From assembly GCA_049968235.1 (NCBI GenBank), contig JBMFRC010000038.1, positions 1 to 10,518 of the forward strand: DNA of 10,518 nt, written 5' to 3'. Origin of the DNA: Candidatus Hydrogenedens sp. (lineage in GTDB: Bacteria; Hydrogenedentota; Hydrogenedentia; Hydrogenedentales; Hydrogenedentaceae). Shown here one piece after another: positions 554-1,910 of this stretch (position 1 is its first letter; each line of letters begins with the position of its first letter). A program made the position numbers and the translations under genes. The notes beneath the pieces are model-generated. The model saw nothing but the letters and a program-made list of their open reading frames with translations, was not told where the DNA came from and did no database searches.

Positions 554-1201
554 ATGAAAATTAAAGGTGCAAGCAAATTATTATCAATTTTATTTATATT
601 ATTAACAACAGAATATTGTTCTATTATCTATGCAAAAGATTTATGTAATCCTTATAACCATAATGAAGTCAATAACTTTAAAAATATTATTAAAACAAAA
701 CTCAACATTAGATCATTAAAATGTGACTATATAGTTAATCGAGAAGAATTCCCAAACGCTCATAATTACTATAATAATTCTAACAACGATTCCGGAGTAC
801 TAATATGTTTAAATGGGAAATTTGTCTATCAAAATGGAAACTTCCGGAAAACTATTATAATACCAGAAAAAGAAAAAAAAGATGATTATAGAAACCTGAT
901 TGAATTATTAATATTAAAAATAACCCCCAAAAAGGATACTATAAAACGGTTCCAGCAGAATTTTTATTTTTATAAAGGGAGTTTTAAATCAAGAGAGTAT
1001 GATTATGATGATTTCCTTGGTTATCACCAATGGGAATTTGTTCATGATAATTTTGACCCTCTCTCTTTATATTATGACCCACTCGTTAATATAGGTTATT
1101 GTCATGGAGTTGGATATCGAGGAAATAATTGGATGGAAGAAAATATCATCTTTAATATTAAAGATTTTTTAGATGAGGAAGGCGATTTTTTATTATTATG
1201 A
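554..1201 (+). CDS. Hypothetical secreted N/Y-rich protein (signal peptide); likely the N-terminal part of a gene split at a T6 run
   Basis: 215-aa ORF with AGGAAT 5 nt upstream of the ATG. N-terminus MKIKGASKLLSILFILLTTEYCSIIYA-KD looks like a Sec signal peptide. Very low GC, rich in Asn/Tyr/Lys, no recognisable catalytic motif. The ORF ends 10 nt past a T6 run (1186-1191), where the +1 frame carries the next ORF. Confidence 0.55.
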   Translation: MKIKGASKLLSILFILLTTEYCSIIYAKDLCNPYNHNEVNNFKNIIKTKLNIRSLKCDYIVNREEFPNAHNYYNNSNNDSGVLICLNGKFVYQNGNFRKTIIIPEKEKKDDYRNLIELLILKITPKKDTIKRFQQNFYFYKGSFKSREYDYDDFLGYHQWEFVHDNFDPLSLYYDPLVNIGYCHGVGYRGNNWMEENIIFNIKDFLDEEGDFLLL

Positions 1202-1910
1202 ACACGGAAAATATAGGATTCTGTGGCATGGAATATTCAAGAAACATCCCCAATATCCAGGATATGAGCCCATAAGTATAGAGGTATGGGTAGATGAAAA
1301 AGAAAATATTTACATGGTCAATTATACATTTTTTCCTTATCGATTTAATAAAAAAGAACTCGTAAATAATTTAATTGGAGAATATGCCCATGGTGATTTT
1401 CCATACATTTCTTATTGGAAATTTTATTACTACGACCATAAAGATTTTAATGATGGTGTTACTATCCCTTTAAGAACAAAAATAGAACATTATAAAATTA
1501 TTACCAATCCTTGTGTAGAAGAAAAAATAAAACAACATCAAATATTAATGCAGGTTAAGAATATTGATATAAATAACTCTTCCTTTATAGCTTGGACATT
1601 ATTAAGTTCTTGCGACGACCCTACATATATTGATGAAATACAAGAAGTAATAATATATCCTGAAAATATCGTTGTTAATGAAGTTATTCCAGAAGAAACA
1701 TTTATTGCCCCAAAACCAGATATTCCTGTTTATTGGACAGAAAAAGAGCAAGAAAACTTTTTTCTAAAACATTTAGAAAAAAAAGAAAATGTTAATTCAC
1801 AACAAAGATTAGGGAGTTTATTCGTTGCTTTTATTTTTGTGTTATTCTGTATTGTATTTACATTTTTAGGGATAGTTGTTACCAAATATTTTTTTGGCTG
1901 GGGAATTTAA
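1173..1910 (+). CDS. Hypothetical Tyr-rich protein with C-terminal transmembrane anchor; likely the C-terminal part of the same split gene
   Basis: 245-aa ORF that overlaps the previous one by 29 nt in the +1 frame. A TAG stop sits immediately 5' of its ATG and there is no clear SD. C-terminus LGSLFVAFIFVLFCIVFTFLGIVVTKYFFGWGI is a hydrophobic TM segment. Deleting one T from the T6 run at 1186-1191 gives a continuous reading ...DEEGDF-YYYEHGKYRILWHG..., a 455-aa type-I anchored protein. Confidence 0.55.
   Translation: MRKAIFYYYEHGKYRILWHGIFKKHPQYPGYEPISIEVWVDEKENIYMVNYTFFPYRFNKKELVNNLIGEYAHGDFPYISYWKFYYYDHKDFNDGVTIPLRTKIEHYKIITNPCVEEKIKQHQILMQVKNIDINNSSFIAWTLLSSCDDPTYIDEIQEVIIYPENIVVNEVIPEETFIAPKPDIPVYWTEKEQENFFLKHLEKKENVNSQQRLGSLFVAFIFVLFCIVFTFLGIVVTKYFFGWGI

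What the first reader, a model, noticed from the sequence alone, without database searches (positions are those of the whole stretch)
1160..1205. T6 homopolymer splits a signal-peptide/TM-anchored surface protein into two overlapping ORFs: candidate phase-variable switch
The 215-aa ORF (signal peptide) stops 10 nt after a T6 run (1186-1191). The 245-aa ORF (C-terminal TM anchor) is in the +1 frame and has a TAG directly 5' of its ATG and no SD. Removing one T yields an uninterrupted 455-aa protein (...DEEGDFYYYEHGKYRILW...) with the topology of a classic surface-anchored protein: N-terminal signal peptide and C-terminal TM helix. In low-GC bacteria, slipped-strand mispairing at short poly-T or poly-A tracts is an established on/off mechanism for surface proteins. 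Here T6 would be OFF and T5 ON. A sequencing indel would look the same.
Basis: partly seen in the sequence, partly recalled or inferred. Interest (0 to 1): 0.55.

Follow-up and report, generated by a model that had tools for sequence, protein, structure and literature searches.

The report
Frameshifted LolA-like gene, likely pseudogene
One extra T has split an envelope-protein gene of an uncultured Hydrogenedens bacterium into two pieces, and the evidence points to an ordinary, recently inactivated spare gene copy rather than an on/off switch.

Summary
ORF1 (554-1201, 215 aa) and ORF2 (1173-1910, 245 aa, +1 frame) overlap at a T6 run (1186-1191). Removing one T gives one 451-aa protein, not 455.

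All 33 full-length homologues (404-486 aa) are single ORFs that read straight through the junction. The junction lies in the second most conserved block of the family. It also falls in the middle of one LolA-like beta-barrel domain.

The "phase-variable switch" reading is not supported:
- T6 is ordinary in this 34% GC window, which has 36 A/T runs of 6 or more.
- It is far below the tract lengths used to call phase variation (poly-A/T of 10 or more).
- All three available Candidatus Hydrogenedens MAGs carry T6.
- No intact allele exists among about 15 billion public proteins.
- Two of the MAGs carry a second, non-repeat frameshift, a 14-nt deletion, in the same gene.
- The partner gene upstream has an in-frame TGA at a Cys conserved in all four aligned homologues.
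- A degraded IS transposase lies next to the gene.
- An intact paralogous module sits elsewhere in the same genome, with an in-frame T7 at the homologous site.

Best reading: a recent frameshift pseudogene in a multi-copy family. Interest is low.

The parts
554..1910 (+). The whole unit: one ancestral gene (451 codons once one T is removed). It encodes a signal peptide, a LolA-like beta-barrel, a C-terminal TM helix and a conserved ...TKYFFGWGI tail. It is now frameshifted.
554..1201 (+). ORF1: the 5' fragment (215 aa). It holds the signal peptide and the N-terminal half of the barrel, and ends at a premature TGA. GenBank annotates it as hypothetical protein ACP5UA_14095.
1186..1191 (+). The T6 run, which is the frameshift lesion. 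The ancestral state is inferred to be T5: GAT TTT TAT TAT TAT = D F Y Y Y.
   Evidence: plus the homologue alignment at the junction.
1173..1910 (+). ORF2: the 3' fragment in the +1 frame (245 aa as called). It has no SD-like motif and no signal peptide. GenBank annotates it as hypothetical protein ACP5UA_14100.
1252..1265 (+). AATATCCAGGATAT, which contains the palindrome ATATCC-A-GGATAT. It is present here but deleted in the two sister MAGs, where it gives a second frameshift in the same gene.
40..507 (+). Partner gene of the conserved module: a Cys-rich, N-terminally membrane-anchored protein of about 155 aa. It is interrupted by an in-frame TGA at 184-186, at the position of a Cys conserved in all four aligned homologues. 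Two further conserved Cys are replaced by Thr.
   Evidence: The same gene lies directly upstream of the family gene in L005-L008, L010 and L011.
2046..2745 (-). Degraded IS481/IS3-like transposase. It has an HTH, rve and rve_3 spread over three frames, with two in-frame stops.
   Evidence: rve E = 4e-12 and rve_3 E = 1e-9 on the stitched frames. An rve_3 fragment is also called in L001.

Best explanation
This is a recent frameshift pseudogene. One T was inserted into a T5 run (GAT TTT TAT to GAT TTT TTA) inside a single gene. That gene encodes an exported LolA-fold protein held in the membrane by a C-terminal TM helix. It belongs to a Hydrogenedentota family that occurs with a Cys-rich partner gene, and often an Lgt-like gene, in several copies per genome. 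The insertion stops translation 4 codons later. The 215-aa product carries the signal peptide and only half of the barrel. The downstream half has no ribosome-binding site and no signal peptide, so no functional protein is expected. The lesion is fixed in the sampled population, and this copy is decaying while an intact paralogous module remains.

Shown: the frameshift itself, its exact position, single-ORF homologues, the bisected domain, the second lesion in sister strains, and the intact paralogue.

Inferred: that no functional product is made, and that the copy is dispensable.
For: 1. Homologues are single ORFs. 33 proteins of 404-486 aa align across query residues about 10-450. The T5 reconstruction restores the family motif FL..G.FY.YE..Y.ILWH.
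2. The junction block (residues 206-225) is the second most conserved 20-residue block of the family.
4. All three MAGs carry T6: the window, GCA_049969095.1 and GCA_049971155.1, which together represent two haplotypes. None of the 36 A/T runs of 6 or more in the window differs in length between assemblies.
5. Two MAGs have an additional 14-nt deletion in ORF2. T6 plus this deletion does not restore the frame.
6. No intact allele is on record. The exact T5 (451 aa) and T8-equivalent (452 aa) proteins are absent from about 15 billion sequences. The full HMMER scan found only the 232-aa and 177-aa fragments at around 100% identity.
7. The upstream partner gene carries an in-frame TGA at the position of a Cys conserved in all four aligned homologues.
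8. A degraded IS lies immediately downstream, where other loci carry an Lgt-like gene.
9. An intact paralogous module is present in the same genomes (P0036/P0005, 486 aa, on L008). It has an in-frame T7 at the homologous site.
10. ORF2 has no SD-like motif, whereas seven other genes in the window have one.
Against: - The copy is otherwise pristine. Both halves remain open for 220 and 246 codons in AT-rich DNA, and they keep every invariant and near-invariant family residue. The inactivation must therefore be very recent, or some product is still made.
- Only three MAGs, probably from one study, were available, and no reads. Within-population T5/T6 heterogeneity is untested.
- A second family member (L009) is split by an A7-to-A8 change relative to intact alleles in two other datasets. 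Homopolymer length changes therefore do recur in this family.
- The upstream TGA could in principle encode selenocysteine rather than mark decay.
Confidence: 0.78

Rival explanations
1. Phase-variable contingency locus. Slipped-strand mispairing at the T run switches the gene reversibly between OFF (T6) and ON (T5).
For: - A change of one T restores a full-length, family-typical protein.
- The family is multi-copy and envelope-located.
- Another member shows A7 (intact) versus A8 (split) between datasets.
Against: - T6 is far below the working thresholds for poly-A/T phase variation: 10 or more in PhasomeIt, PMC6321876.
- It is no longer than 35 other A/T runs in the window.
- There is no length variation in three assemblies, and no ON allele in public data.
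- A second, irreversible frameshift is present in two strains.
- The longer runs in the same gene (two A8, one T7) and the T7 at the homologous site of the paralogue are all in frame and invariant.
Confidence: 0.06
2. Sequencing or assembly artefact. The true genome has T5 and an intact gene.
For: Homopolymer indels are a common error type, and all the MAGs probably come from one project and one technology. The gene is otherwise intact.
Against: - Three separate assemblies with different contig breakpoints and two haplotypes all give T6.
- None of the 36 A/T runs of 6 or more differs between assemblies.
- Five of the other long ORFs in the window are full length and identical or matched in the sister assemblies; the 444-aa gene is called at 439 aa in one of them.
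- The 14-nt deletion in the same gene in two MAGs is not a homopolymer error.
Confidence: 0.06
3. Programmed recoding. Either +1 ribosomal frameshifting at UUU_UUA, helped by the purine-rich GAGGAAGG just upstream, or transcriptional slippage on the T6/A6 tract produces some full-length protein.
For: tRNA-Phe could re-pair perfectly from UUU to UUU in the +1 frame. An SD-like GAGGAAGG lies 4 nt upstream of the TTT, which loosely resembles the prfB arrangement (my own knowledge).
Against: - The shift is not conserved. All 33 homologues, and the paralogue in the same genome, are in frame at this site.
- The purine-rich stretch simply encodes the family's conserved (D/N/E)(K/E)(E/P)G.
- The A-site codon UUA is a common codon in a 27-34% GC gene, so no pause is expected. 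This is inference.
- Known transcriptional-slippage rescue needs runs of about 9 or more (my own knowledge).
- Sister strains tolerate a further frameshift downstream.
Confidence: 0.05
4. Two genuinely separate, functional genes: a secreted 215-aa protein and a tail-anchored 245-aa protein.
For: GenBank annotates them as two hypothetical proteins, ACP5UA_14095 and ACP5UA_14100.
Against: - No homologue is naturally split here.
- The split falls inside a beta-hairpin of one barrel domain.
- ORF2 lacks an SD-like motif and a signal peptide.
- In sister strains ORF2 is broken again.
Confidence: 0.02

Closest known systems
Frameshift pseudogenes created by single-base indels in short homopolymers (ordinary gene decay, common in AT-rich genomes and in redundant paralogues)
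   Same: A +1 base in a mononucleotide run, a premature stop a few codons later, intact single-ORF homologues, extra lesions in close relatives, an intact paralogue in the same genome, and a neighbouring IS remnant.
   Different: Nothing essential. The copy is unusually fresh, with only one lesion in this haplotype.
SSR-mediated translational phase variation (contingency loci of Campylobacter, Neisseria, Haemophilus and Helicobacter; PhasomeIt criteria, PMC6321876)
   Same: An intragenic homopolymer whose length sets the reading frame of an envelope protein from a multi-copy family.
   Different: The tract is only 6 T, against 10 or more A/T or 7 or more G/C. It is not enriched over background, shows no observed length variation and has no ON allele. 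A second, non-repeat frameshift occurs in the same gene. The organism is an environmental Hydrogenedentota, not a host-adapted pathogen.
LolA/LolB/DUF1329/RseB superfamily (periplasmic lipoprotein and lipid-binding open beta-barrels)
   Different: There is no Pfam or NCBIfam hit, and identity to solved structures is 5-12%. The protein is about 450 aa, with large insertions, a C-terminal TM helix and a conserved RYxGWG tail. It is always paired with a Cys-rich membrane protein. Function was not tested.
prfB-type programmed +1 ribosomal frameshifting
   Same: A +1 frame relation, an SD-like purine stretch a few nucleotides upstream, and a P-site codon that can re-pair in +1.
   Different: The site is not conserved in homologues, and there is no stop or rare codon in the A site at the slip position. 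The arrangement is explained by coding constraints.

Membership tests
SSR-driven phase-variable (contingency) gene | A hypermutable repeat tract of a length shown to switch at high frequency (working cut-offs: poly-A/T of 10 or more, poly-G/C of 7 or more) | tested here: not met
   The tract is T6. Cut-offs are from PMC6321876.
SSR-driven phase-variable (contingency) gene | Tract length differs between closely related strains, samples or reads | tested here: not met
   T6 in all three MAGs, which represent two haplotypes. Read-level heterogeneity cannot be tested here.
SSR-driven phase-variable (contingency) gene | The tract stands out against the genomic background | tested here: not met
   36 A/T runs of 6 or more in 10.5 kb. 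The same gene holds two A8 runs and a T7 in frame.
SSR-driven phase-variable (contingency) gene | An ON-length allele encoding the full protein exists in the population | tested here: not met
   The exact T5 and T8-equivalent products are absent from about 15 billion proteins. The full HMMER scan finds only fragments at around 100% identity.
SSR-driven phase-variable (contingency) gene | A one-unit change in the tract restores a full-length ORF | tested here: met
   Removing one T gives a 451-aa protein collinear with the homologues.
Frameshift pseudogene | Homologues are uninterrupted single ORFs spanning the break | tested here: met
   33 homologues of 404-486 aa. Checked at DNA level in L005-L008.
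Frameshift pseudogene | The break falls inside a conserved structural domain, not at a domain boundary | tested here: met
Frameshift pseudogene | Independent additional inactivating lesions in the gene or its operon in close relatives | tested here: met
   A 14-nt deletion in two MAGs. An in-frame TGA in the partner gene, though this one is ambiguous because Sec is not excluded.
Frameshift pseudogene | No functional product is made (loss of expression or function) | not testable with these tools
   Needs transcriptome, proteome or genetics. Only indirect evidence is available: no SD-like motif and no signal peptide on ORF2.
Programmed +1 ribosomal frameshift (prfB-like) | The shift site and frame arrangement are conserved among homologues | tested here: not met
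   All homologues are in frame at this position.
LolA superfamily | An open antiparallel beta-barrel fold with a helical plug, exported by a signal peptide | tested here: met
LolA superfamily | Sequence-profile membership (Pfam LolA, LolB, DUF1329, etc.) | tested here: not met
   No Pfam or NCBIfam family at E of 0.01 or below.
LolA superfamily | Binds lipoprotein acyl chains or lipid | not testable with these tools
   Needs a biochemical assay.

The most novel reading that the evidence does not exclude
The LolA-like / Cys-rich modules of Hydrogenedentota could be a contingency family. In this reading, short A/T runs (T5/T6 here, A7/A8 in the L009/L011 member) switch individual copies on and off in the population, or are partly read through by slippage. 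The window would then show an OFF copy rather than a dead one. That would be SSR-type switching with unusually short A/T tracts in an uncultured, free-living phylum.
Probability: 0.06. Interest if true: 0.5.

Novelty: already known. Interest (0 to 1): 0.12.

Why it matters
The main value is as an annotation correction and a caution.
- The two GenBank 'hypothetical proteins' ACP5UA_14095 and ACP5UA_14100, and their counterparts in the two sister MAGs, are fragments of one frameshifted gene.
- A short A/T run at a frame break in AT-rich DNA is the expected signature of ordinary decay and should not by itself be read as a switch.

A by-product is the recognition of an uncharacterised Hydrogenedentota family with no Pfam hit. 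It is a LolA-fold protein with a C-terminal TM anchor and an RYxGWG tail. It is always paired with a Cys-rich membrane protein, and an Lgt-like gene is often nearby. It may be worth describing in its own right.

Tried and rejected
- The word-indexed homologue search with the fused protein returned nothing. The exhaustive HMMER scan was needed.
- Pfam and NCBIfam gave no family for the protein or for its Cys-rich partner.
- The first genome-contig scan with the single protein found nothing. The 33-sequence alignment was too diverse to derive search patterns. A 6-sequence alignment found only one GTDB locus and two metagenome loci.
- No paper mentions the accessions.
- Rfam found only the L10 leader, and there are no tRNAs.
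- The promoter and terminator scan of 1-2900 was no better than shuffles.
- Rescue at the other T6 (1165-1170) is rejected because it creates TAG.
- Compensation between T6 and the 14-nt deletion is rejected. The net change is -13 nt, which is still out of frame.
- TGA reassignment was considered because no confident gene in the window ends in TGA. It is rejected because the long genes contain no in-frame TGA and match their homologues' lengths.
- Selenocysteine at TGA 184-186 was considered. The downstream hairpin is not better than shuffles (z = -1.5). The question is left open.

Full report
**Observation.** The window (34% GC) has a 215-aa ORF at 554-1201 and a 245-aa ORF at 1173-1910 in the +1 frame.
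- The T run at 1186-1191 is exactly six T. ORF1 reads GAT TTT TTA TTA TTA TGA, and ORF2 is preceded in its own frame by TAG at 1170-1172.
- The two frames are open together only between 1173 and 1198, so the frame change must lie there.
- Both open stretches (220 and 246 codons) far exceed the longest open run in 1000 shuffles of the region, which was 106.
- ORF2 has no SD-like motif, whereas seven other genes of the window (all but the 444-aa gene) have one.
- A hydrophobic N-terminus and a strong C-terminal TM segment are present.
- The T6 itself is not special. The window holds 36 A/T runs of 6 or more, and the gene has two A8 runs and a T7 in frame.

**One gene or two.** A word-indexed search found nothing, and Pfam and NCBIfam gave no family.
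- An exhaustive HMMER scan of 1.84 billion cluster representatives found 35 hits. Two are fragments of this very gene. One is a fragment of another member. The remaining 32 proteins on that list are full-length and measure 404-486 aa, and each aligns across essentially the whole fused query (for example P0003: 458 aa, query 9-450, E = 5e-75).
- In the alignment the T5 reconstruction DFLDEEGDFYYYEHGKYRILWHG lines up without a gap against EFFNKEGKFYYYEKDGYKVLWHG (P0004) and its relatives.
- Residues 206-225 form the second most conserved 20-residue block of the family.
- The ancestral sequence was therefore GAT TTT TAT TAT TAT (T5), and the window carries a +1 T insertion.

**What the protein is.**
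- AlphaFold2 with the family alignment gives a confident single model (pLDDT 83.8, pTM 0.77). The blocks covering residues 201-230, which include the junction, are at pLDDT 93-94.
- The two halves are not repeats of each other (hhalign probability 0.3%).
- The frameshift therefore cuts one barrel domain in half. ORF1 keeps the signal peptide and half a barrel. ORF2 keeps the other half and the TM anchor, but has no export signal.

**Organism and population.**
- Exact-sequence look-ups show that ORF1 and ORF2 are annotated in GenBank as two hypothetical proteins, ACP5UA_14095 and ACP5UA_14100, of a 'Candidatus Hydrogenedens sp.' MAG. The phylum is Hydrogenedentota, in the FCB group.
- Two further MAGs carry the locus: GCA_049969095.1 (L001/L004) and GCA_049971155.1 (L002, L003). 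They are 99.5-99.95% identical to the window and together cover all of it.
- Both have T6. Both also share a 14-nt deletion of window 1252-1265, which contains the palindrome ATATCC-A-GGATAT. This is a second frameshift and does not compensate the first.
- Across the whole window the other differences are four SNP positions and one 1-nt indel in a non-homopolymer intergenic site. No A/T run of 6 or more differs in length.
- Neither the T5 (451 aa) nor the T8-equivalent (452 aa) product exists among about 15 billion public proteins.

**Context.**
- The family gene is always preceded by a gene for a Cys-rich protein of about 150 aa with a conserved MRITNFIKNYPC... N-terminus. This holds in L005, L006, L007, L008, L010 and L011.
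- An Lgt-like gene is adjacent in several loci: downstream in L008, L009 and L010, and upstream in L005.
- L011 has two modules in tandem.
- In the window the Cys-rich gene (40-507) contains an in-frame TGA at 184-186, exactly where all four aligned homologues have Cys. Two other Cys that are conserved in all four aligned homologues are Thr here.
- Downstream, instead of an Lgt-like gene (tblastn was negative), there is a degraded IS481/IS3-like transposase at 2046-2745 on the minus strand. It has frameshifts and two in-frame stops.
- The same genomes keep an intact paralogous module: a 158-aa Cys-rich gene plus a 486-aa family gene, P0036/P0005, on L008.
- In that paralogue the homologous junction reads GGG ATT TTT TTC TAT. 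This is an in-frame T7, and the protein is intact in all three MAGs.

**Interpretation.** The switch hypothesis fails most of the tests that could be run:
- Tract length. T6 compares with PhasomeIt cut-offs of 10 or more for poly-A/T (PMC6321876).
- Enrichment over background.
- Strain-to-strain variation.
- Existence of an ON allele.

It is also contradicted by a second, irreversible lesion in sister strains and by signs of decay in the surrounding module. A sequencing artefact is unlikely, given three concordant assemblies and perfectly reproducible homopolymers elsewhere. Programmed +1 frameshifting is not supported because the arrangement is not conserved in any homologue. The purine-rich GAGGAAGG upstream simply encodes the family's conserved acidic/Gly motif.

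The best explanation is a recent frameshift pseudogene in a redundant, multi-copy family (confidence about 0.78).

**Caveats.**
- The copy is otherwise intact and retains all conserved family residues, so the lesion is young.
- Read-level heterogeneity could not be examined.
- Another family member is split by an A7-to-A8 change in one dataset (L009) but is intact in two others (L011, L012), at 99.2% identity. This is expected if homopolymers are simply the commonest indel sites in AT-rich genes. It still leaves a small probability, about 0.06, that the family uses short A/T runs as low-frequency switches.

**Verdict.** This is a real feature and an ordinary phenomenon (already known). Interest is low, at 0.12.

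Noticed in passing
window 184-186 (within 40-507, + strand): There is an in-frame TGA in the Cys-rich partner gene, exactly at a position where all four aligned homologues have Cys. It is either a nonsense mutation (TGT/TGC to TGA) or a Sec/Cys pair. A hairpin follows: 8-bp upper stem, apical loop 34 nt after the UGA, dG -9.7. It is not better than shuffles (z = -1.5). Two other Cys conserved in all four aligned homologues are Thr in this copy.
   Followed up: partly
window 40-1910; L005, L006, L007, L008, L010, L011: A conserved, uncharacterised Hydrogenedentota module. It pairs a Cys-rich membrane-anchored protein of about 150 aa (MRITNFIKNYPC...) with a LolA-fold protein of about 450 aa that has a C-terminal TM helix and an RYxGWG tail. 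An Lgt-like gene often lies beside it. L011 has two modules in tandem. Neither of the first two proteins has a Pfam family.
   Followed up: partly
window 2046-2745 (- strand): A degraded IS481/IS3-like transposase. It has an HTH, rve and rve_3 spread over three frames with two in-frame stops, and fills most of the 'non-coding' gap between 1911 and 2866.
   Followed up: yes
window 1252-1265: A 14-nt segment containing the perfect palindrome ATATCC-A-GGATAT is deleted in both sister MAGs. This looks like a hairpin-mediated deletion polymorphism.
   Followed up: yes
L009 405-412 vs L011 3481-3487 / L012: Another family member is split by an A8 run in one Logan assembly (SRR9860464). It is intact, with A7 and 414 aa, in a JGI metagenome and in another SRA run. 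The strains differ by 8 SNPs over 1.1 kb. This could be a real polymorphism or a low-coverage assembly error.
   Followed up: partly
L010 7500-8290: The Lgt-like gene downstream of the module carries a single in-frame stop (…NGLISSN*FFSLPVHPTQLYE…) and is called as two PF01790 fragments. It may be another decaying module component or an assembly error.
   Followed up: no
window 4339-7545 (- strand): rplJ-rplL, with an L10 leader at 7396-7545 (Rfam 47.4 bits), is followed not by rpoB but by a GT39/PMT-type glycosyltransferase (4339-6210). After that comes a 444-aa protein (2867-4201) whose sister-MAG counterparts carry a precomputed PF26745 SPM hit and which itself shows only sub-threshold EF-hand matches. 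The usual rplKAJL-rpoBC arrangement is broken here.
   Followed up: no
window ~10313 (intergenic) and 2509, 3959, 7759, 10147: These are the only other differences between the three MAGs: one 1-nt indel (T vs TT) and four SNPs. No confident gene in the window uses TGA as its stop (six TAA, two TAG).
   Followed up: partly
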